This document shows positions 29,344 through 41,122 of a stretch of DNA of 64,000 bases, piece after piece. The notes beneath the pieces were generated by a model. It saw only the letters and a list, made by a program, of their open reading frames with translations. It did not search any database and was not told the origin of the DNA. A program made the translations under genes and the position numbers. Numbering within the stretch: position 1 is the first letter of the stretch; each line of letters opens with the position of its first letter. Where the stretch lies: the NCBI RefSeq assembly GCF_056712565.1, contig NZ_CM160072.1. One strand, written 5' to 3'.

Positions 29344-29826
29344 ATGATAAAGCACCTGCTAGCACCCCTGATTTTCACCTCGCTAATACTTACTGGCTGC
29401 CAGTCCCCTCAGGGAAAGTTTACTCCTGAGCAAGTCGCCGCTATGCAATCTTATGGATTTACTGAATCCGCCGGCGACTGGTCGCTGGGCTTATCAGATG
29501 CCATTCTGTTTGCAAAAAATGACTACAAATTGCTCCCGGAAAGCCAGCAACAGATCCAAACCATGGCAGCCAAATTGGCCTCGACAGGGCTAACACATGC
29601 CCGTATGGATGGACACACCGACAACTATGGTGAAGACAGTTACAACGAAGTCTTATCATTGAAACGGGCGAATGTCGTGGCCGATGCATGGGCTATGGGT
29701 GGACAAATTCCGCGCAGCAATCTCACCACACAGGGTTTAGGAAAAAAATATCCCATAGCCAGTAACAAGACCGCCCAGGGCCGCGCCGAGAACCGCCGCG
29801 TCGCAGTGGTGATTACAACCCCTTAA
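29344..29826 (+). CDS. yfiB: OmpA-family lipoprotein YfiB
   Basis: 160 aa; lipobox LTGC; OmpA-like C-terminus. Confidence 0.9.
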   Translation: MIKHLLAPLIFTSLILTGCQSPQGKFTPEQVAAMQSYGFTESAGDWSLGLSDAILFAKNDYKLLPESQQQIQTMAAKLASTGLTHARMDGHTDNYGEDSYNEVLSLKRANVVADAWAMGGQIPRSNLTTQGLGKKYPIASNKTAQGRAENRRVAVVITTP

Positions 29827-29998: not shown

Positions 29999-31048
29999 TT
30001 ATGCAACCTCTGCCGCCATATTGTCGCCAACATACAGCGATAACGGATTAAGGGTTACAGCTTGTTCAAGGTGGTCAGGAGCAAAGTGTGCATACTTCAT
30101 TGTTTCTCGAATATTGGCATGCCCGAGAATTTTCTGCAGTACCAGTATATTCCCGCCGTTCATCATAAAATGCGCACCAAAAGTATGACGCAAAACGTGC
30201 GTCTTCTGCCCTTCCGTCAATTCAATATTCGTTAGTTTGAGCATCTTCTTAAACTCCTGATAGCAGGGTTTAAACATTCTGCCTTGACGTACGGACAACT
30301 CGTCGTACAGCCATTTAGGAATAGGAACTGTGCGATTCTTCTTACCTTTGGTTTTGGTGAACGTCAGTTTATATGGAGAAAGTTGAGGGCGGGTCAATCT
30401 CTCCGCTTCCCCCCATCGAGCGCCGGTTGCAAGGCACACCTTAACAATCATGGTGAGGTCTTCTTTGCCGTATTGCTCGCAGGCTCGAAACAGCTCCGGG
30501 AGCTGAGACAAAGTTAGCCAGGACATTTCTTTCTCAGCCTCTTTGAATACTCGGATCCCATCAAGTGGATTGGGTAGGCTCCACTCCCCTAACCGGCGGA
30601 GCTCATTAAACACTGCTTCTAGGTATTGTTGTTCGCGATTGACGGTTATAGGTTTGGCGATCCATTTCGAGGGGTCTTTATGATAACCGTTGTCTATTTC
30701 ACCACGTAATCGACGGTCACGATAATGAGCCCAGTCTTTCGCGGTAAGGCGAGATGCAATCGGGTCACCAAGCCCATTACATACGATTTGAAGCTTTGCT
30801 AACCTCGACTTACTGGCGACTAACGCTTGACCGTGCAAATTGTGCCAAAGCTGAATAATCTCGCTTAAGCGTCGGCGGTCTTCTTTCTTGCCAAGCCACG
30901 GCTTATCTTCACTCTCGCTTTTGGTAAATGCTTCGAATGCCTCGGCCTCACCTTTGGTATTGAATTGCCGACGTATACGCCGCCCTTCTCGACCATTTGG
31001 ATAGAGCTCGCATAACCATTTGCCATTTTTTTGCTTACTTACAGTCAT
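29999..31048 (-). CDS. int: phage integrase (tyrosine recombinase, 186/P2 Int family)
   Basis: 349 aa; MTVSKQKNGKWLCELYPNG...; catalytic region HVLRHTF...LGHANIRETMKYAHF. Confidence 0.9.
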   Translation of the reverse strand: MTVSKQKNGKWLCELYPNGREGRRIRRQFNTKGEAEAFEAFTKSESEDKPWLGKKEDRRRLSEIIQLWHNLHGQALVASKSRLAKLQIVCNGLGDPIASRLTAKDWAHYRDRRLRGEIDNGYHKDPSKWIAKPITVNREQQYLEAVFNELRRLGEWSLPNPLDGIRVFKEAEKEMSWLTLSQLPELFRACEQYGKEDLTMIVKVCLATGARWGEAERLTRPQLSPYKLTFTKTKGKKNRTVPIPKWLYDELSVRQGRMFKPCYQEFKKMLKLTNIELTEGQKTHVLRHTFGAHFMMNGGNILVLQKILGHANIRETMKYAHFAPDHLEQAVTLNPLSLYVGDNMAAEVA

Positions 31049-34340: not shown

Positions 34341-36563
34341 TTGGCTGTTCAATTCGCTTATCCGTGGAACGTCCCACGGTCGGCAATCTCCAGCCCATAC
34401 CTTACTTATGAGCAACAGCATCGCCGCGACCGTATGTTCGCGGCTTTGCTGCATGCAAAAAAGGTGCTTTCTCTCCAGCCCGACTGCGTGCGGTTAGATG
34501 TTTATCGCACTGCTGCGGTGCTGGAGCAAAATCAGGGTAGTCAACGAGCCAATGCATTTTTAATCAGCTTCTGCAAAAAGGCATTGCCGCGTCTTGAACT
34601 GGTCGCAAAAAAATACGAATGCGCTGGTATCAACAGCAAGGTATCAACCGCTGTTTTTGGAAGTCATTTTGATACTCAGCAAATGCAATATCTGTCGTCA
34701 CGCATGGTTAATATGGTCGCCCGATATAACCGTCTCCCGGACATGTCGCGCGCTGATGTTGACCTGTTGGCCGCTGATATTGCTAATTTCATTCGTGGTG
34801 AACTTGCCAACATTAATGACCACGGATTCGGCGAGCTTAAAACGCTGTACACCTGGTATATTCGTGCTGGCTTTATTTCCCTCCAATTCAACGTTATCCC
34901 ACCACATTGGGAGCGGGTTGAAAAAAAATATGTCGGTGCGGATGAAATCGCACCGGCTATCGCCAAAATGTTTAACGATGGGTGGTGGCGCGGTCGTTTG
35001 CGCCGTGTAGCAGCTACGTGGCGCGAACACCTGCAAATTGCAGTCGGCAACGTCAGTAAGAAAAAAAACACTTACGCGAGTAAAAACTGCGTGACTGACT
35101 GGCGTGAACAAAAGCGCCGCACTCGTGAATTTCTCAAAGGTCTGGATCTCGAAGACGAAGACGGCAACCGTATCAGCCTAATTGAAAAATATGATGGCTC
35201 AGTTGCTAACCCTGCGATTCGCCGCTGTGAGCTCATGACCCGCATTCGTGGGTTTGAAAACATCTGTAATGAGCTCGGTTATGTCGGTGAGTTTTACACT
35301 CTAACCGCGCCGTCAAAATATCACGCCACGACTAAAGCCGGTTACCGTAACAGCAAATGGAGCGGTGCCAGCCCGGCTGACACGCAAAACTATCTAACCG
35401 GTATCTGGGCGCGTATCCGTGCCAAACTACATCGGGAAGATGTCCGTATTTTCGGTATTCGTGTCGCCGAGCCCCATCACGACGGCACTCCACACTGGCA
35501 CATGCTGATGTTCATGCTGCCGGAAGATGTTGAATATGTTCGCTCCATCGTCCGTAAATACGCATGGAAAGAAGACCGCCACGAACTGAAAAGCGATAAA
35601 TCCAAAAAAGCACGTTTCCACGCGGAGTCCATTGACCCGGAGAAAGGCAGCGCAACCGGCTATGTTGCTAAATACATTTCAAAAAATATCGACGGTTATG
35701 CTCTCGATGGTGAAACCGATGATGAAAGCGGTGAGCTGCTGAAAGAGACAGCCCCCGCCGTTTCAGCATGGGCTGCGCGCTGGCACATCCGTCAGTTTCA
35801 GTTTATTGGTGGTGCGCCGGTGACGGTTTACCGTGAGTTGCGTCGCCTCGCTGATACCGAAACCGCGCACGGTCTGAGCGTTGAGTTTGCCGCCGTCCAT
35901 GATGCCGCCGACGCTGGTGACTGGGCTGGTTATGTTAATGCTCAGGGTGGGCCGTTTGTCCGTCGCGATGATTTACAGGTGCGCACACTGTATGAACCGC
36001 GTACCGAGCTTAATCAGTACGGTGAGGAAACGGTATGTATTAAGGGGGTCTACGATTCCTCCATAGGTGCAGGAAGCCCGATTTTAACCCGGCTCACTCA
36101 GTGGAAGATTGTTCCGAAGCGTGCTGTTGATTTGCCCGTTGACCTTCAGGACGGCAAAGCCGTCCCTCGGAGTTCTGTCAATAACTGTACGGGAAGCGAA
36201 AGCGATCCACCGATACTGGATTTAACAAAACCACTGAGTCGGCGTGAAAGACGAGAATTGACCAACCGACTCAGGAAGCAAAAGCCAGCAGCACGGCGAA
36301 AATTCATCCACGGAACGGATGAGCAAAACGCAGCTATAGCTAAAACTATCGATGAGATACATCTGACAACCGGCATTAATATCAGCCGGGGCGAAGCCCT
36401 GCACCTGATGGCCGGTGGTAAAAGTTGTTTTGATGGTAAATGGCTACGCGGAACGGCCAAAGGAGAAATATTTTCCGCAGCACCATCGCATGAGGCTAAA
36501 GCTCGGAAAATCCTTAATCGTGTTGCGGCGATGGCTGAAGCATTAAAACCAATACATGAGTAA
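34341..36563 (+). CDS. replication initiation endonuclease (P2 gpA / 186 RepA family)
   Basis: 740 aa; position and size; HUH-like region (TPHWHMLMFM) and tandem tyrosines (YVAKYISKNIDGYAL). Confidence 0.8.
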   Translation: MAVQFAYPWNVPRSAISSPYLTYEQQHRRDRMFAALLHAKKVLSLQPDCVRLDVYRTAAVLEQNQGSQRANAFLISFCKKALPRLELVAKKYECAGINSKVSTAVFGSHFDTQQMQYLSSRMVNMVARYNRLPDMSRADVDLLAADIANFIRGELANINDHGFGELKTLYTWYIRAGFISLQFNVIPPHWERVEKKYVGADEIAPAIAKMFNDGWWRGRLRRVAATWREHLQIAVGNVSKKKNTYASKNCVTDWREQKRRTREFLKGLDLEDEDGNRISLIEKYDGSVANPAIRRCELMTRIRGFENICNELGYVGEFYTLTAPSKYHATTKAGYRNSKWSGASPADTQNYLTGIWARIRAKLHREDVRIFGIRVAEPHHDGTPHWHMLMFMLPEDVEYVRSIVRKYAWKEDRHELKSDKSKKARFHAESIDPEKGSATGYVAKYISKNIDGYALDGETDDESGELLKETAPAVSAWAARWHIRQFQFIGGAPVTVYRELRRLADTETAHGLSVEFAAVHDAADAGDWAGYVNAQGGPFVRRDDLQVRTLYEPRTELNQYGEETVCIKGVYDSSIGAGSPILTRLTQWKIVPKRAVDLPVDLQDGKAVPRSSVNNCTGSESDPPILDLTKPLSRRERRELTNRLRKQKPAARRKFIHGTDEQNAAIAKTIDEIHLTTGINISRGEALHLMAGGKSCFDGKWLRGTAKGEIFSAAPSHEAKARKILNRVAAMAEALKPIHE

Positions 36564-36637
36564 TTCATATCCATATCATGCACATACAGCAATCGCTCTA
36601 TTCGTTTTTTTTCTTCCCATCTTTTGCCAATACGTGC

Positions 36638-36657
36638 TACTGTATAAATATACAGTA
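36638..36657. promoter_or_regulatory. LexA box (SOS operator)
   Basis: TACTGTATAAATATACAGTA = CTGT-N8-ACAG consensus, ~20 bp upstream of the 36677 ORF. Confidence 0.8.
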
Positions 36658-36676
36658 ACCCTATGGGAGGGATTTC

Positions 36677-36859
36677 ATGGTTGGCGAACATTTCAGCCGA
36701 ACGCAGCAAAAGTGGGCTTGTGTGCAATTTATTGCCGAGGTATCTCTGATTGCAAACTGCAAGCCATCAGACTTAAAGCTCGCGCTCACTCTCATTGCAG
36801 ACCTAGCAAACAGCGAAAATAACGAAACCGAAGATGATAATTTTTATAAGGCTGATTAG
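36677..36859 (+). CDS. small SOS-controlled protein, possible Tum-like antirepressor
   Basis: 60 aa; GGAGGG RBS; directly downstream of the LexA box; position equivalent to 186 tum. Confidence 0.4.
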   Translation: MVGEHFSRTQQKWACVQFIAEVSLIANCKPSDLKLALTLIADLANSENNETEDDNFYKAD

Positions 36860-36862
36860 ATT

Positions 36863-37093
36863 ATGAGAATCAATATCACGTTGGATAAAGAGCAAAAATT
36901 AGGGCAACAGATCATTGATGCTTTTCAGAATGAAATAACACATCGAGTACAATGCGTTTTTCCTGCAACAAAAGTTAACGTTAAGAAAGGGTCAATGACT
37001 GGTGTAGAGGCTATCGGATTCGATAAAGAGGCGGACAGAGAAACATTAGGCAGCATATTACAAGAGATTTGGGAAGACGATAGCTGGCGTTAA
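36863..37093 (+). CDS. DinI-family protein
   Basis: 76 aa; MRINITLDK...QEIWEDDSW resembles E. coli DinI (MRIEVTIAK...QETWESADDW). Confidence 0.8.
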   Translation: MRINITLDKEQKLGQQIIDAFQNEITHRVQCVFPATKVNVKKGSMTGVEAIGFDKEADRETLGSILQEIWEDDSWR

Positions 37094-37292
37094 ACATAAT
37101 AACCGTGCTGGCGCAAAAACTAGCTTTTTGCGTCGGCGGGGTTGAGTAACGAGCCCACGAGGCTTAAGTCCTGCCTTTCAAAATTTCTCAATGTGCTATT
37201 GATGACACGCCCATGATTAATGAGGCATGACCTGAGATGGTTTTATAGTGGCGTTTTGACGGCACTGATTAAAATTCATTGAGGGTGATAAT

Positions 37293-37502
37293 ATGCATCG
37301 ACTACCAGGTGAAATACCGCAGCACAAAACTAAAAGCATCAAACTGATGGCCATCGTTCATCGTTTGCAGCAGATAATGGTCAATGAGAATTTGACACCC
37401 GCAGAGCTGGTCGGGTGTGCCGAAATAGTCAGGGATAATTACGGCAAGCTGGATAGCATCAGCAGGTCGAAACAATACGCACCACCACCACGTCGACGAT
37501 AG
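37293..37502 (+). CDS. hypothetical protein
   Basis: 69 aa; GAGGG RBS; flanked by two copies of a ~30-bp repeat. Confidence 0.4.
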   Translation: MHRLPGEIPQHKTKSIKLMAIVHRLQQIMVNENLTPAELVGCAEIVRDNYGKLDSISRSKQYAPPPRRR

Positions 37503-37576
37503 CAAACGCCGCCGGTTCTGAAACTCGCTTTCAGTACTGGCGGGGGTTGAACAACGAGCACCGCGAGGCGTTAGCA

Positions 37577-38518
37577 TTAATTTATTTTTAATGAATGGTA
37601 ATCTCGTGAGTTGACCGAAGATTTGAGATAACTGCAATCATTAACCGACAGTATTGCCGCTAATAGGCGACATACCAGTGCCTGCATTTGCAGCAATATA
37701 TCGTTACCATATTGACTGTTGTTAACACTTGAGAAACCAAGCGGTTGACCAAAAAAAATAGCCTCATGAAAATTATCATTGCGGATGCCAGAAATGTTTT
37801 TTTTACCTGACACCCATGTGGGGATTGATAACCCATAAATTTTGCACATCCACTTTAATCGCTTGTAATGATTTGGCGGTTTTTTATCAGGAGCCTTGTC
37901 ATGCTCAGCCCACGACAAAGCAAAGCACCCATCAAGTGCCATGTAAAGATACTGGAATTTTTCAAAAGAAAGGTATTGTGGGTTTTGAGATAAGAATAGT
38001 GCATGCACCACTGCCGCAATTCTTTTGGGGGAGTGCGCATCCTTATGTTTGCCATTTATATAATTAAGAGCCAGTTCTATGACTTCTTTTTCAGAGCATC
38101 CAACGAGAATAAAGTCGGTTAACTTAGTGGGCTTGATAGTGGTTGCATCTAAAAAACCAGCGTCAGTGGTTGTCAATCTTATTCCCTTGAAAAAAGAAAG
38201 GCACCACACAATAAAGTTGAGAGTTTCTAACGAGGATGTATTTTTTAATTTTAGTGTGTGCGTTTTGGGCATACTGAATACTCGGTGACTATAAGGCATT
38301 GTGGATATGCCACCATTAAGGTTATATACATCTTGGTTTCCAGGGTATATCCAACCTTTCACAACGTTTTTATCATTATTAACACGCTCCACTTTCTCAT
38401 TGAGACCAGGTAAAGTAAGCAAAGAAAATTGTTCAGTCTCAATGTTAACTTCTACTGGATAGTATCCAAACTCCGACATAATCTCATTGGGTTGCTGTTC
38501 GTCAACTTCACCTTGCAT
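37577..38518 (-). CDS. hypothetical 313-aa protein at the cos-proximal old/tin position
   Basis: Long AT-rich ORF; GGAG RBS; 16-bp perfect palindrome CTCGATAATTATCGAG at 38541-38556 upstream; no motif recognised. Confidence 0.7.
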   Translation of the reverse strand: MQGEVDEQQPNEIMSEFGYYPVEVNIETEQFSLLTLPGLNEKVERVNNDKNVVKGWIYPGNQDVYNLNGGISTMPYSHRVFSMPKTHTLKLKNTSSLETLNFIVWCLSFFKGIRLTTTDAGFLDATTIKPTKLTDFILVGCSEKEVIELALNYINGKHKDAHSPKRIAAVVHALFLSQNPQYLSFEKFQYLYMALDGCFALSWAEHDKAPDKKPPNHYKRLKWMCKIYGLSIPTWVSGKKNISGIRNDNFHEAIFFGQPLGFSSVNNSQYGNDILLQMQALVCRLLAAILSVNDCSYLKSSVNSRDYHSLKIN

Positions 38519-38755
38519 ATCTTTCTCCGTTCAAAAATAGGCTCGATAATTATCGAGAGGCTATCATGTTTGGAAAGAACCAATGTCCGTAATTTTTGTA
38601 AATTTAAGGTGATTTATCAATAAATAAGCTGTGCATGCAACAGGTGCATGGTTCTGCATGCGCCGGGGTTACCCGTTTTGTACGTGCGCCGCAAGAGCTG
38701 GCGGGGATCCAGAGTGGTCATGCAACTGCATTAAAACCGCCCCATAAAGCGGGCA

Positions 38756-38774
38756 GGCGTGGCGGGGAAAGCAT
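38756..38774. other. cos (cohesive-end site), 186-type
   Basis: GGCGTGGCGGGGAAAGCAT, 17/19 identical to P2 cohesive end GGCGAGGCGGGGAAAGCAC as recalled; sits between replication/accessory region and portal gene. Confidence 0.65.
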
Positions 38775-38993
38775 TGCGCGTCAGCAGTGATGCGTAATAA
38801 TAAAAATTATCCTCTGAGCGCGTCGTGATGGCGCTGTCGTGGTCGCTGCTGGTTCGTTGGTGGTCGGGTGTGTTCGTGCGCGTGAGACGCATCTGATGCG
38901 TGATGGTGGTGTGCATGGAAAAGCCACCAGGAGCAGCGGCTTTACAGGAGTGGCAGGATTCAAACTGCTAATTATGTTTCTACTATGATTAAA

Positions 38994-39998
38994 CTAATTT
39001 ACATGTATGTAGAGTTCACCGTCGCCAGACCAATCGGGACACTCTAAAACAAGCCCAAACTGCTTGAATATTTCATCAATGATTATTGTTATCTCCCGAA
39101 AATCACCAAAACCTGTAATGTGCTGGTCATTAAACTTCCCATAAAGATTCTGAAAAGCAATGCCTAATTCTGATAATTGATATCTTATCTTTGAGTTGGA
39201 TAGTGTAAGGGATAGCTTTGGATCGTATTCTTTAATATTGATGTTTAGAGAATGGACATAACCCATCGCATAAGCATAAGAGTTGATGATTAGCCTGATA
39301 CGTTTTTTTACTTCGAGATACATGTCATTCAGAGAAATATTACCGTACTTATAACCCCAGATGAGTTTTTCAATCTCGTCAGATACTTCATTTACAACAG
39401 TGTCAAGATTCTCTAAAAATAAATCGATAGTTTCTTGAGGGGCAGACCCCGAAGACATGTAATTAGCGAGATATTCAGACCATGCACGCGTGGCTGAGAT
39501 AAGAAGCGCGCTACCATACTCGTTGACTGTAAAGTTTTGGGCTAAGCATGTTAGTAAGTTTTTTTCATGTACGTGCACTAATTCATGGTGAATGCGATGG
39601 ATGACTGCGAGGTATCCTTCTTCTTTCAGTTTTAAGAAGCTACCATCATTGAAAAGCTCAACAAAAAAATCAATCGATAGCACAAGGGTATATTCTTCAC
39701 ATAGCCCATCATTGCCAATTTTTGTTACTAACTGCCCGACGGCTGCGCCCTGTTTACTATTGGTAAATGAACTAGGGGATTTGTGTTGGTAAGAGGATGT
39801 TACCTTTTGAAGAGCTTCACTGAAGTTATAGGAAACAATCACGCATTTTAATTTGGAGATATCAAGATTGAGATTTTTTGTTAAAGCTCGGATAGCTTCT
39901 AGTGTGAAATTACCGATATTATTTGCTTCTTGCTCAGTAGCGAAACCTTCGAGGGTTATTTTAAAATCAGTTTCCAAAATATTAATCTCCGCGCCCAT
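38994..39998 (-). CDS. hypothetical 334-aa protein with HExxH zinc-metallopeptidase-like motif (cargo between cos and portal)
   Basis: AT-rich ORF; motif VIHRIHHELVHVHEKN; own sigma70-like promoter upstream. Confidence 0.7.
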   Translation of the reverse strand: MGAEINILETDFKITLEGFATEQEANNIGNFTLEAIRALTKNLNLDISKLKCVIVSYNFSEALQKVTSSYQHKSPSSFTNSKQGAAVGQLVTKIGNDGLCEEYTLVLSIDFFVELFNDGSFLKLKEEGYLAVIHRIHHELVHVHEKNLLTCLAQNFTVNEYGSALLISATRAWSEYLANYMSSGSAPQETIDLFLENLDTVVNEVSDEIEKLIWGYKYGNISLNDMYLEVKKRIRLIINSYAYAMGYVHSLNINIKEYDPKLSLTLSNSKIRYQLSELGIAFQNLYGKFNDQHITGFGDFREITIIIDEIFKQFGLVLECPDWSGDGELYIHVN

Positions 39999-40016
39999 TG
40001 TTTTGATATTCGATGC

Positions 40017-40045
40017 ACTATAGCTTTCGCAGATTGCATCTTCAA
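40017..40045 (-). promoter_or_regulatory. sigma70-like promoter for the 334-aa gene
   Basis: Minus-strand TTGAAG-17 bp-TATAGT, ~20-50 bp upstream of the ATG. Confidence 0.55.
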
Positions 40046-40075
40046 TAATGAGCGCAGAGATTGTGGCGGCCTAAG

Positions 40076-41122
40076 TTATTCTGGGTTGTCGAGGGTGTAC
40101 TCTTTGAATCTGATGACCTCCATGCCGAGCCAGTCATTTACCTCCCTGAACCTGTCCTGTAGCGGCGACAGCTCGTTGCGCACAAATACCTTTGCCACCT
40201 TCTCAACATCACCGAGTGAACCGATATTCTCGGGCTTGCCGCCCATGAGCTGGAACGGTACGCGGTGCGCGTCCATCAGATCGGCGGCACTGGCCTTCTT
40301 GATGTTGAAAAAGTCATCCTTTGTGGCGACCTCGCTCAGTGGCACGATTTTGATGCCGTCCGGTTTTCCGCCGGGAGCGTAGAAAAACAGGTTCTTAAAG
40401 TTGCCGAGCCCTTTTGAGTTGCGCATCGCCTCGCGCAGCGATTCGACGTCGGTCGCGCTCTGCGCCGGGTCAGTCACATACATGATGTAACCCGCGTGCG
40501 CGCCGTTCTGATAATACTTGCGGCGGAACAGCGTCGCGGATTCATTCAGCCAGGCGGAATTTAGCGCGCTGAGATATTCGGGCAGGCCGTAAATCTCCTG
40601 ATTAATGTCGGGCTCCAGCAGGTGAAACACGGTATCAGGCGCGAACTCGTGCGGCTGGGTGAAGTTTTCCACAAACCAGAAAATCGAATCGTCGACTCCG
40701 CGTCGGGTGTATTTGGCTGGCGAGGCCAGCAGTTTGATTAACTGGCCGGTGACGCTGTGGCGCTGCTCAAGAAAGGCGTTACCGAACACCAGATAATCGA
40801 GCGCAAAGCGGCTGAAATCCTGACGGGATAACAACGGGTGCGGAATGTAGGTGCTCGCGAGCACGTTACGCTTAACATAAATTGGCGAGCTGTGATGCAC
40901 GGCAGAGCGCAGGCTCTTTGCCAGCCCTGAGAAGCTGACCGGCGGCTCGTACCATTTGCCGTTACTGATGCACTCGACGTAATCCAGAATGTCGCGCTTA
41001 TCGAGTACCGGCACCGGCTCGCCGAAGGTGAACGCTGTCGTTTTTGGCGGTGCGCTGGCGGTCAGTTGTTGTGGTTTGCTGGCCTTTTGTGCGTTGGCTT
41101 TACGGGATTTTTGTTTACCCAT
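40076..41122 (-). CDS. portal protein (P2 gpQ family)
   Basis: 348 aa; size and position adjacent to terminase ATPase. Confidence 0.85.
   Translation of the reverse strand: MGKQKSRKANAQKASKPQQLTASAPPKTTAFTFGEPVPVLDKRDILDYVECISNGKWYEPPVSFSGLAKSLRSAVHHSSPIYVKRNVLASTYIPHPLLSRQDFSRFALDYLVFGNAFLEQRHSVTGQLIKLLASPAKYTRRGVDDSIFWFVENFTQPHEFAPDTVFHLLEPDINQEIYGLPEYLSALNSAWLNESATLFRRKYYQNGAHAGYIMYVTDPAQSATDVESLREAMRNSKGLGNFKNLFFYAPGGKPDGIKIVPLSEVATKDDFFNIKKASAADLMDAHRVPFQLMGGKPENIGSLGDVEKVAKVFVRNELSPLQDRFREVNDWLGMEVIRFKEYTLDNPE

What the first reader, a model, noticed from the sequence alone, without database searches (positions are those of the whole stretch)
37115..37569. Two copies of a hairpin-plus-30-bp conserved box flanking a 69-aa ORF
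GGCGGGGTTGAGTAACGAGCCCACGAGGC (37135-37163) and GGCGGGGGTTGAACAACGAGCACCGCGAGGC (37539-37569) are ~85% identical direct repeats. Each is preceded by a different small hairpin (GCAAAAACTAGCTTTTTGC; CTGAAACTCGCTTTCAG). They bracket the 37293-37502 ORF and sit at ends of convergent transcription units. They could be terminator-associated motifs, binding sites, or scars of cassette duplication or insertion.
Basis: seen in the sequence. Interest (0 to 1): 0.35.

Follow-up and report, generated by a model that had tools for sequence, protein, structure and literature searches.

The report
Conserved double-hairpin gene-end element of P2/186 phages
The two "boxes" are two copies of a roughly 70-base, strand-specific double hairpin that P2/186-type phages of enterobacteria carry directly behind the last genes of their early/SOS operon, at the edge of the region where they swap anti-phage cargo genes; it is real, conserved and apparently undescribed, but its function is only inferred.

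Summary
The repeat is real, but larger than reported. Each "small hairpin + 30-bp box" is one ~70-nt element (E1 37101-37168, E2 37505-37574, + strand). It has a long hairpin HP1, one unpaired G and a short hairpin HP2. The "box" is HP1's 3' arm plus HP2. The window is a 186/PSP3-like prophage.

E occurs in 94 phage records (186, PSP3, Wphi and others) and in 520 of 5426 E. coli genomes. Every context inspected was a P2-like prophage. It has no Rfam match. It always follows a co-oriented stop codon, most often by 2 nt, of dinI/tumB, orf37 (the 69-aa ORF) or orf97. Variable cargo starts right after its last base.

Covariation strongly supports the fold. G·U pairs outnumber A·C 193 to 24 in HP1, so the sense strand is the folded one. 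There is no conserved U-tract, and in 186 the mapped terminators lie elsewhere.

Best reading, with function inferred: a transcribed 3'-UTR module that fixes or protects the upstream mRNA end whatever cargo follows. Its conservation also supplies portable homology for module shuffling, which explains two copies around one gene.

Rivals are a factor-recognised regulatory RNA, an ssDNA replication or recombination element, an attC-like site and a terminator.

The parts
37101..37168 (+). Element copy 1 (E1), a diverged subtype. HP1 runs 37101-37143 (AAC...GUU base, top GCGCAAAAA/UUUUUGCGU). The unpaired G is at 37144. HP2 is remodelled to GAGCC-CACGA-GGCUU (37151-37165). E1 starts 7 nt after the dinI/tumB stop codon, and further in-frame stops (TAA ACA TAA TAA) run into its AAC.
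   Evidence: Sequence; fold -32.6 kcal/mol, z -2.8 on +, z +0.3 on -; CM hit 58.6 bits, E 2e-14; the same subtype follows dinI in L214-L219.
37505..37574 (+). Element copy 2 (E2), the canonical type. HP1 runs 37505-37548, the unpaired G is at 37549, and HP2 runs 37550-37572 (AAC-AA-CGAGC-ACC-GCGAG-GC-GUU), followed by AG. It begins 2 nt after the orf69 stop and ends 2 nt before the stop of the convergent ORF313.
   Evidence: Sequence; fold -31.9 kcal/mol, z -3.3; CM hit 89.2 bits, E 7e-23; 94.5% identical to phage 186 positions 30342-30413.
36863..37093 (+). dinI/tumB, the gene whose stop codon precedes E1. It is one of the three gene families that carry the element at their 3' end.
   Evidence: Pfam DinI, 1.7e-17; annotation of the 99.7% identical phage vB_EcoM-613R3 and of PSP3 tumB; 51 of 168 element contexts have this upstream family.
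36677..36859 (+). tumA-like gene (SOS-operon antirepressor part), immediately upstream of dinI/tumB.
   Evidence: Annotated 'UV induction of prophage' in ON470592 and tumA in PSP3; PHROG 1993.
37169..37292 (+). Spacer between E1 and orf69. It is 78% identical to the PSP3 spacer between its first element copy and orf37. No promoter-like site was found in it.
37293..37502 (+). orf69, the PSP3 orf37/gp37 family. It is a real protein-coding gene bracketed by E1 and E2, encoding a two-helix protein of unknown function.
   Evidence: PHROG 11386, 1.5e-47. Divergence at codon positions 1 and 2 is 0.096 against 0.34 at four-fold sites. Alignment A4 has 26 invariant residues. AF2 model: helices 10-32 and 36-59, pLDDT 77. 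The element follows the stop codon in nearly all of the 80 homologues fetched by protein similarity.
37577..38518 (-). ORF313, the cargo gene convergent on E2 and a homologue of P2-EC67 ORF313. [quoted passage not shown]
   Evidence: PHROG 5937, function unknown; no PADLOC or Pfam hit.
38757..38775 (+). 186-type cohesive-end sequence (ggcgtggcggggaaagcat). The conserved cos-proximal block starts at about 38631 (gtgcatgcaacaggtgcat) and forms the right border of the variable region whose left border is E2.
   Evidence: Sequence compared with 186 and RCIP0057.

Best explanation
Each copy is one member of a roughly 70-nt element (E) conserved in P2/186-family (Peduoviridae) phages of Enterobacterales.

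Shown:
- E is a discrete module with sharp ends (AAC...GTTAG).
- It folds, on the sense (+) strand only, into two adjacent hairpins separated by one G.
- It sits directly behind the stop codon of one of three accessory genes at the far end of the rightward early/SOS operon: dinI/tumB, orf37 or orf97.
- Unrelated cargo begins immediately after its last base.
- It is under constraint.
- It lacks a U-tract, and in phage 186 it is distinct from the annotated terminators.

Inferred:
- E acts as RNA. It is transcribed as the untranslated tail of these genes and forms a very stable 3' structure (about -31 kcal/mol).
- This structure serves as an exonuclease barrier and/or processing point. It fixes the 3' end and stability of the conserved upstream message whatever cargo, or antisense cargo, lies downstream. 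In other words it works as an mRNA 'insulator', while letting RNA polymerase read through.
- As a by-product, 70 bp of near-identical DNA behind three different genes gives portable homology. Upstream modules and cargo are recombined at it, and gene+E units become stacked. That is why the 69-aa gene here, as in PSP3, is bracketed by two copies.
For: Distribution: 94 phage records including 186, PSP3 and Wphi; more than 120 IMG/VR contigs; 520 of 5426 E. coli genomes, and every context inspected was a P2-like prophage, including those inside IncC plasmids; 23 species representatives, all but one Enterobacterales.

Structure, on copies fetched through the neighbouring proteins rather than through the motif: 89.9% of cells paired against at most 45.5% for slid controls; 16 of 26 pairs have changes on both sides; 0 of 500 shuffles reach the observed values. 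HP2's tandem G·A/A·G (66 of 92) is replaced by Watson-Crick or wobble pairs in 26 of 92, which is 22 U-A/C-G plus other standard pairs such as the CCCGC/GCGGG stem seen in L247.

Strand specificity: 193 G·U cells against 24 A·C cells in HP1. Mean fold energy is -31.0 kcal/mol on + against -22.5 on -, with + more stable in 88 of 92.

Position: the upstream gene is always co-oriented and falls in three families (65 orf37, 51 dinI, 35 orf97). The commonest stop-to-AAC spacing is 2 nt (84 of 166).

Constraint: E divergence is 0.16 against 0.34 at four-fold sites of the adjoining orf37, and it saturates at about 0.16-0.20 while synonymous divergence rises to 0.67.

Not a terminator: in 186 the order is orf97, E, 22 nt, t95b; U-tracts are rare; no promoter-like site lies between E1 and orf69, so read-through is likely.

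Shuffling: there are 66 downstream classes, and each upstream family is joined to 18-25 of them. Seven cargo classes are joined to two or more upstream families. Identical E plus the same cargo is found behind different genes, with differences only in the 1-4 nt 5' of AAC. Tandem units occur as dinI-E-orf37-E (window, PSP3) and orf37-E-orf97-E (L211).
Against: There is no transcript or 3'-end data for this element. The RNA role is inferred only from strand asymmetry, sense orientation and position.

A plain exonuclease barrier would not need the near-invariant AAC/GUU closing pairs, the unpaired G, the AA/GC internal loop or the GUUAG end. These suggest recognition by a specific factor.

Phage P2 itself lacks E, so it is dispensable for the family's basic life cycle.

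Lower divergence could partly reflect homogenisation by recombination rather than selection. At low synonymous divergence E is not more conserved than the gene.

G·T wobble is also tolerated in single-stranded DNA, so a + strand ssDNA role is not excluded.
Confidence: 0.42

Rival explanations
1. E is a regulatory RNA recognised by a specific factor, not a passive barrier. Two versions are possible. It could be an RNase III-type processing or retroregulation site, as with lambda sib or the T7 R sites. Or it could couple to translation termination: a ribosome at a stop codon 2 nt from HP1 must melt the hairpin base, as reported for REP elements within about 15 nt of stop codons. Either way it would tune expression of dinI/tum, orf37 or orf97.
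For: Closing pairs AAC/GUU of both hairpins, the junction G and the AA/GC loop are conserved without covariation, while the rest of HP1 covaries freely. HP1 is about 18 bp with conserved mismatches. The stop-to-hairpin spacing is fixed at 2 nt in the majority, and tandem in-frame stops are found elsewhere. The knowledge of sib, T7 R sites and REP-stop-codon effects is from memory, not from a paper read here.
Against: No candidate factor has been identified. The three upstream genes are unrelated, so a shared regulatory need is not obvious. No data exist on cleavage or stalling.
Confidence: 0.2
2. E acts as single-stranded DNA of the + strand during rolling-circle replication started by the A protein. 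It could be a lagging-strand initiation or primosome-loading signal, or a hairpin that promotes template switching and so recombination at the hotspot border.
For: Folding is strand-specific and tolerates G·T. E lies 0.8-1.8 kb downstream of the ori inside gene A. Two adjacent hairpins resemble the general layout of known ssDNA initiation signals (from memory). E is clearly a recombination joint.
Against: P2 replicates the same way and has no E. E shows no similarity to the P2/186 nick site. It is not established here which strand is displaced. With DNA parameters the fold is much weaker (-18 kcal/mol). The tight link to stop codons is unexplained by a DNA role.
Confidence: 0.1
3. E is a site-specific recombination site working like an integron attC. 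A folded single strand behind each cassette gene would be used by some recombinase to insert and excise gene+E cassettes and cargo.
For: Gene+E units occur in tandem. E starts right after stop codons. Both junctions are very sharp, with 66 different downstream sequences. The fold is strand-specific, with AAC...GTT at the base of each hairpin. The title of Nilsson et al. 2004 proposes site-specific recombination at this locus, but that paper could not be read.
Against: The attC core sites are not met: RYYYAAC in 0 of 92 and GTTRRRY at the 3' end in 3 of 92. The fold is two hairpins, not one R/L-box hairpin, and the whole-element closing helix is the weaker model. Only three upstream gene families carry E. 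No integron-type integrase is known in these 30-kb phages. Everything observed is also explained by homologous exchange within 70 identical base pairs.
Confidence: 0.07
4. E is a transcription terminator. It would act for the rightward operon, or bidirectionally for convergent cargo genes such as ORF313, whose stop codon is 2 nt from E2.
For: E occupies the position that the partial terminator t95a holds behind tum in 186-type phages. The next ORF is convergent in 55 of 141 downstream contexts. The reverse complement of HP1 is followed by GUUU.
Against: No conserved U-tract follows E on the + strand. 186 has a separate t95b 22 nt downstream, annotated as the p95 terminator. The - strand fold is weak and not better than shuffles for E1 (z +0.3), and only -1.8 for E2. 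orf69 downstream of E1 appears to depend on read-through.
Confidence: 0.08
5. E has no function of its own. It is a remnant that persists by hitch-hiking and is homogenised by recombination, or it is a small selfish mobile repeat.
For: P2 lacks it. At low divergence E is no more conserved than its neighbours.
Against: Fourteen of 18 HP1 pairs show compensatory double changes that keep the fold, across divergent lineages. Divergence saturates well below synonymous divergence. E occurs at one locus only, in one orientation, never elsewhere in the 64-kb window and in no context other than P2-like prophages among those inspected. A mobile repeat would not behave this way.
Confidence: 0.05

Closest known systems
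REP/BIME extragenic palindromes of E. coli (from memory)
   Same: They are transcribed, imperfect, strand-biased hairpins placed just after stop codons or between genes of an operon. They stabilise the upstream message against 3' exonucleases, can affect translation when very close to the stop codon, and are repeated, so they serve as recombination substrates.
   Different: There is no sequence similarity. E is confined to one locus of one phage family, not dispersed over the chromosome. It is a fixed pair of hairpins with an invariant junction (GUU-G-AAC). No RAYT-type transposase is involved.
Phage 186 SOS-operon terminators t95a and t95b
   Same: They lie in the same operon and neighbourhood. 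E1 of PSP3-type phages occupies the place of t95a behind tum/dinI, and in 186 E lies 22 nt upstream of t95b.
   Different: t95a and t95b are ordinary G+C hairpins followed by T-runs. E has no U-tract and carries no annotation in the 186 record.
Integron attC sites
   Same: Both have gene-plus-element units that can be stacked, start right behind the stop codon, fold strand-specifically, and have conserved AAC...GTT triplets paired at the hairpin base.
   Different: The 7-nt core sites fail (0 of 92 and 3 of 92). E has two hairpins instead of the R/L-box hairpin. No IntI is present. Only three gene families carry E, and the cargo genes downstream do not carry their own copy.
Lambda sib and T7 RNase III processing hairpins (from memory)
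   Same: These are long imperfect hairpins in phage transcripts, 3' of a gene, that decide the fate of the upstream message.
   Different: No evidence of RNase III cleavage exists here. Sequence and architecture are unrelated, and E sits at the border of a cargo hotspot.
HK022 put RNAs (from memory)
   Same: They are about 70 nt, with two stem-loops separated by a single unpaired base, and act in cis on the nascent phage transcript.
   Different: put sites are promoter-proximal and make polymerase resistant to downstream terminators. E lies at the distal end of the operon, and in 186 transcription is reported to stop at t95b just after it.

Membership tests
Integron attC site | Inverse core R'' (RYYYAAC) at the 5' end and core R' (GTTRRRY) at the 3' end, complementary to each other | tested here: not met
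   On 92 distinct copies, RYYYAAC was found in 0 of 92 and GTTRRRY at the element's 3' end in 3 of 92. Only the AAC and GTT triplets are shared.
Integron attC site | A single imperfect hairpin in which R''/R' and L''/L' pair (one folded strand) | tested here: not met
   Covariation supports two side-by-side hairpins. The helix that would close the whole element (AACGCC/GGCGUU) is broken in 25 and 17 of 92 copies at two positions, without compensation.
Integron attC site | Associated integron integrase (IntI) and attI | not tested
   The window was not scanned for integrases. Only the stretches of the 186, PSP3 and 613R3 records around the element were read, and none of them lists an integrase of any kind. 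That these phages carry only the phage Int, and no IntI, rests on memory.
Integron attC site | Arrays of many unrelated cassettes, each with its own site | tested here: not met
   There are at most two copies per phage in most cases. Only three upstream gene families carry E, and cargo genes do not.
Intrinsic (Rho-independent) terminator | G+C-rich hairpin immediately followed by a U-tract | tested here: not met
   At least 6 T in an 8-nt window after HP2 in 5 of 170 contexts, and at least 5 T in 40 of 170. HP1 is followed by GAACAAC.
Intrinsic (Rho-independent) terminator | Mapped transcript 3' end at the site | not testable with these tools
   The 186 record annotates t95a (29545-29576) and t95b (30436-30463), not E (30342-30413).
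Any Rfam RNA family | Covariance-model match | tested here: not met
   cmscan of 36400-40400 at E up to 10 gave four chance-level snoRNA/lncRNA hits, none overlapping E.
REP elements | Membership of the dispersed chromosomal REP sequence family | tested here: not met
   BLAST of E against 5426 E. coli genomes gave 592 places in 520 genomes, median one per genome. All inspected places were in P2-like prophages. No REP-like dispersal was seen.
P2/186 replication origin (A-protein nick site) | Similarity to GCGCC(T/C)..TCGGAGT(C/T)CTGTCAATAAC | tested here: not met
   The ori sequences of P2 and 186 were read. They have no resemblance to E.
Structured cis-acting RNA (generic) | Fold maintained by compensatory changes on the transcribed strand | tested here: met
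   The sense strand is that of the A/tum operon.

The most novel reading that the evidence does not exclude
E is a dedicated docking site for cargo exchange. A strand-specific folded DNA or RNA structure at the left border of the P2/186 cos-proximal defence hotspot would be recognised by a phage or host recombination or replication factor. This would actively drive the very fast, junction-precise turnover of anti-phage genes, giving an integron-like cassette system that uses a different site and enzyme.
Probability: 0.1. Interest if true: 0.8.

Novelty: new variant of a known kind. Interest (0 to 1): 0.5.

Why it matters
P2-like prophages are among the richest known reservoirs of anti-phage defence genes, and how their hotspot turns over so quickly is an open question. 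This element is the last conserved sequence before the variable cargo. It has a base-precise junction to at least 66 different downstream sequences and is demonstrably a pivot of module shuffling.

If it is an RNA insulator, it explains how a phage can accept arbitrary cargo in either orientation without disturbing its SOS/early operon, and it would be a ready-made part for synthetic biology. If it is a recombination or replication signal, it bears directly on the mechanism of hotspot turnover.

Practically, it is an unannotated, easily modelled landmark (a covariance model of 78 positions). It delimits the left edge of the hotspot more precisely than gene anchors do, and it could be proposed as a new RNA motif.

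Tried and rejected
1. Rfam: no family matches.

2. Pseudoknot between the HP1 loop (CUCGC) and the downstream GCGAG. It looked attractive in a few copies, for example CUCUC/GAGAG. Copies with other hairpin tops have no complementarity, and GCGAG is better explained as the 3' strand of HP2.

3. Three-way junction with a closing helix AACGCC/GGCGUU: weaker than the two-hairpin model.

4. Secondary nick site for the A replication protein: no similarity to ori.

5. attC membership: the core sites fail.

6. Chi-like (GCTGGCGG) and EcoKI-like (AAC-N7-GTGC) readings: these positions vary or have the wrong spacing (inspection).

7. A promoter formed by TTGAAC and TAGC..: the spacing is 19 nt and the -10 is poor; no scan hit.

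8. Occurrence outside phages: the plasmid and 'position 2636/2952' chromosome hits are all P2-like prophages in records that start at gene A.

9. A mobile miniature element: E is found at one locus, in one orientation, and is never dispersed.

10. Literature. Nilsson et al. 2004 (Mol Biol Evol 21:1), Odegrip et al. 2006 and the Christie & Calendar review are not held. Papers on P2 hotspots that I could read do not mention the element. The element's sequence occurs in no held paper. My recollection that Vibrio VCR ends resemble 'ACAAACGCC' could not be verified and is not used.

11. orf37 as a possible RNA-binding partner: it is a two-helix hairpin with no PDB match and no family annotation, and E also occurs in phages without orf37.

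Full report
**What the window is**

The finding lies in a 186/PSP3-like (Peduoviridae) prophage. Upstream are replication gene A (34341-36563), a tumA-like gene (36677-36859) and dinI/tumB (36863-37093). Downstream are a 69-aa ORF (37293-37502), a convergent 313-aa ORF (37577-38518, - strand), the 186-type cos sequence (38757-38775), a 334-aa ORF and then the portal gene.

The stretch is 99.7% identical to phage vB_EcoM-613R3. It is therefore the distal end of the rightward early/SOS operon and the cos-proximal variable region. The literature calls this region the TO region or the P2 defence hotspot (PMC9122126).

**The observation**

They are far beyond chance: 2 matches against 0.01 expected, and covariance-model E-values of 7e-23 and 2e-14 with nothing else in 64 kb.

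The description needs revising. The 5' part of each box (GGCGGGGUU) is the 3' arm of a long hairpin, and the 'small hairpin' is the top of that hairpin. The differences between the two tops are compensatory: GCGCAAAAA/UUUUUGCGU against UCUGAAA/UUUCAGU.

The repeat unit is about 70 nt: E1 at 37101-37168 and E2 at 37505-37574, 68.6% identical. E2 fills almost the whole gap between the stop codons of orf69 and ORF313, leaving 2 nt on each side. E1 lies between the co-directional dinI and orf69.

**Relatives**

- BLAST of E2 finds 94 phage records, from E. coli, Salmonella, Yersinia, Klebsiella and Erwinia phages. They include 186 (30342-30413), PSP3 (two copies) and Wphi.
- In complete E. coli genomes, 520 of 5426 carry it, with a median of one copy.
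- Hits on plasmids and at odd chromosome coordinates are P2-like prophages in records that start at gene A.
- A strict pattern finds it in 23 species representatives, all Enterobacterales except one short Acidimicrobiia MAG contig that I did not examine.
- P2 itself has no copy.
- No record I saw annotates it, Rfam has no match, and its sequence appears in no paper of the held library.

**Anatomy**

The alignment shows a module with sharp edges. Conservation begins at AAC and stops after GTTAG, and the flanks on both sides are unrelated between contexts. The consensus is:

AAC-g-CCGCCGGUGCUGAAA-CUYGY-UUUCAGUGCUGGCGG-g-GUU (HP1), then G, then AAC-AA-CGAGC-NNN-GCGAG-GC-GUU (HP2), then AG.

My first collection was selected through the box itself. 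To avoid that bias I fetched further loci through the neighbouring proteins: 80 through orf37 and 74 through DinI. I read whatever followed their stop codons and aligned 97 copies, 92 of them distinct, to a model.

On that set:
- 89.9% of cells form standard pairs, against at most 45.5% when partners are slid.
- 16 of 26 pairs show changes on both sides.
- No shuffle out of 500 reaches the observed values.
- In HP1, 14 of 18 pairs have double changes.

Divergent copies rebuild the stem completely. Examples are AACCUCAGCGGC/GCCGCUGAGGUU, AACCCUGCAGGUG/CACCUGCAGGGUU and AAUCC/GGAUU.

HP2 has tandem G·A/A·G in 66 of 92 copies. In the rest it has Watson-Crick or wobble replacements: CUCGC/GCGAG, CCCGC/GCGGG and CGAGC/GUUUG.

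An alternative helix closing the whole element (AACGCC/GGCGUU) is less well supported. A loop-to-3' pseudoknot that I first suspected does not hold in copies with other hairpin tops.

**Which strand**

In HP1, G·U cells outnumber A·C cells 193 to 24. The + strand fold averages -31.0 kcal/mol against -22.5 for the complement, and is the more stable in 88 of 92 copies. In the window the - strand folds are no better than shuffles for E1.

The tandem G·A pairs also fold on one strand only. So the selected structure belongs to a single strand with the polarity of the A/tum operon mRNA. This argues against a duplex-DNA binding site and against a terminator designed for leftward cargo transcripts.

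**Context**

The upstream gene is always co-oriented. In 151 of 168 distinct contexts it belongs to one of three unrelated families: orf37 (65), DinI/TumB (51) and 186 Orf97 (35).

The stop codon most often ends exactly 2 nt before AAC (84 of 166). Otherwise the spacing is up to about 18 nt, often with further in-frame stops running into the element.

Downstream I count 66 unrelated sequence classes. The next ORF is co-directional in 84 cases and convergent in 55.

In 186 the order is tum, t95a, orf97, E, 22 nt, t95b, cos. E is therefore neither of the annotated terminators. A cargo-free Klebsiella phage has dinI, E, a t95b-like hairpin and cos.

A U-tract after HP2 is rare. Between E1 and orf69 the promoter scan finds nothing, so orf69 is probably expressed by read-through of E1.

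**Constraint**

Among orf37-linked copies, E differs on average at 16% of positions while four-fold sites of the adjoining gene differ at 34%. E divergence saturates near 0.16-0.20 while synonymous divergence rises to 0.67.

At very low divergence E is not more conserved than the gene, which points to exchange of E between lineages. The same calculation shows that orf69/orf37 is a real gene: divergence at codon positions 1 and 2 is 0.096.

**Shuffling**

Each upstream family is joined through E to 18-25 different downstream classes, and seven downstream classes are joined to two or three upstream families.

Several pairs have an identical E and the same cargo behind different genes, differing only in the 1-4 nt just 5' of AAC. 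Examples are dinI against orf37, orf97 against orf37, and dinI against orf97.

Gene+E units also occur in tandem: dinI-E-orf37-E in the window and in PSP3, and orf37-E-orf97-E in L211. This is how one small gene comes to be bracketed by two copies. It is not a local duplication, because the two window copies are each closer to copies in other phages than to each other.

**Interpretation**

The existence, extent, fold, strand, position, constraint and role of E as a recombination joint are shown. The function is inferred.

I commit to a transcribed gene-end module: a very stable double hairpin placed immediately after the stop codon. It would define and protect the 3' end of the conserved message, or provide a processing point, independently of the arbitrary cargo that follows, without stopping the polymerase. 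Its conservation would secondarily supply portable homology for module and cargo exchange. I put this at about 0.4.

The invariant AAC/GUU closing pairs, the junction G, the AA/GC loop and the fixed 2-nt spacing from the stop codon hint at a specific partner. That could be a nuclease, the terminating ribosome or a protein, and this is my main rival (0.2).

The other rivals are:
- A + strand ssDNA role in rolling-circle replication or template switching (0.1).
- A true site-specific, attC-like site (0.07).
- A terminator (0.08).
- No function (0.05).

Their tests are listed in the corresponding fields.

**Comparison with known things**

E works most like REP/BIME elements or phage RNase III hairpins, but it is a member of neither family. 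It superficially resembles attC in several ways: stacked gene+site units, a start right behind the stop codon, single-strand folding and AAC...GTT at the hairpin base. However, it fails the defining core sites (0 of 92 and 3 of 92) and the single-hairpin architecture.

I could not read the two papers most likely to have seen it, Nilsson et al. 2004 and Odegrip et al. 2006. Prior description of 'a stem-loop at the start of the TO region' therefore cannot be excluded. The hotspot papers I could read do not mention it.

**Verdict**

This is a genuine, widespread, structurally well-supported and apparently unannotated cis element at a biologically interesting border. Its mechanism remains open. 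I rate interest at 0.5.

Noticed in passing
window 37577-38518 (-) and 38994-39998 (-): Two cargo ORFs flank the cos site: a 313-aa homologue of P2-EC67 ORF313 (PHROG 5937) and a 334-aa ORF (PHROG 11743). Both sit in the P2-type defence hotspot. Neither has a Pfam or PADLOC hit, so they are candidate uncharacterised anti-phage genes.
   Followed up: partly
window 37293-37502; L009 3151-3345 (Wphi gp92); L003/L004: The orf37 family is highly conserved over its first 50 residues, with a variable tail ending in PPPRRR, and is predicted to be a two-helix hairpin. In Wphi, P2-EC67 and 720R8 its 5' end is replaced or frameshifted while the element behind it stays intact.
   Followed up: partly
window 38631-38775: The right border of the variable region is as sharp as the left one. 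Conservation with 186 and RCIP0057 resumes at GTGCATGCAACAGGTGCAT, about 125 nt before the cohesive-end sequence. The 186 terminator t95b is absent from cargo-bearing phages such as this one.
   Followed up: no
window 37091-37103: The dinI/tumB gene ends in three in-frame stop codons (TAA ACA TAA TAA), and the last overlaps the AAC that starts HP1. Other contexts likewise have tandem in-frame stops leading into the element, for example TAA ACA TGA in 186.
   Followed up: partly
L008 1546-1577 (186 t95a) and the DinI-anchored loci L231-L245: In 186-type phages a classical terminator (ACCCCAUG...CAUGGGGUUGUUUU) sits where PSP3-type phages have E1. It shares GGGGUUG with the 3' arm of HP1. Whether it is a derived form of the element is unknown.
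   Followed up: no
L131 (NZ_CP104682.1 1-5691) and about 15 similar IncC plasmids: P2-like prophage sequence (gene A, the element, a reverse-transcriptase gene, portal) is integrated in large conjugative IncC plasmids of Klebsiella, E. coli, Citrobacter, Enterobacter and Providencia.
   Followed up: no
L302 5371-5403 (Acidimicrobiia MAG contig JAHRAM010000011.1): This was the only hit of the strict element pattern outside Enterobacterales, on a 6.6-kb contig with the longest allowed gap. It may be chance or contamination.
   Followed up: no
L211 1093-2143: A P2-type phage carries orf91-orf37-E-orf97-E followed by a co-directional 220-aa cargo gene. This is a second kind of two-copy arrangement, with a different gene between the copies.
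   Followed up: partly
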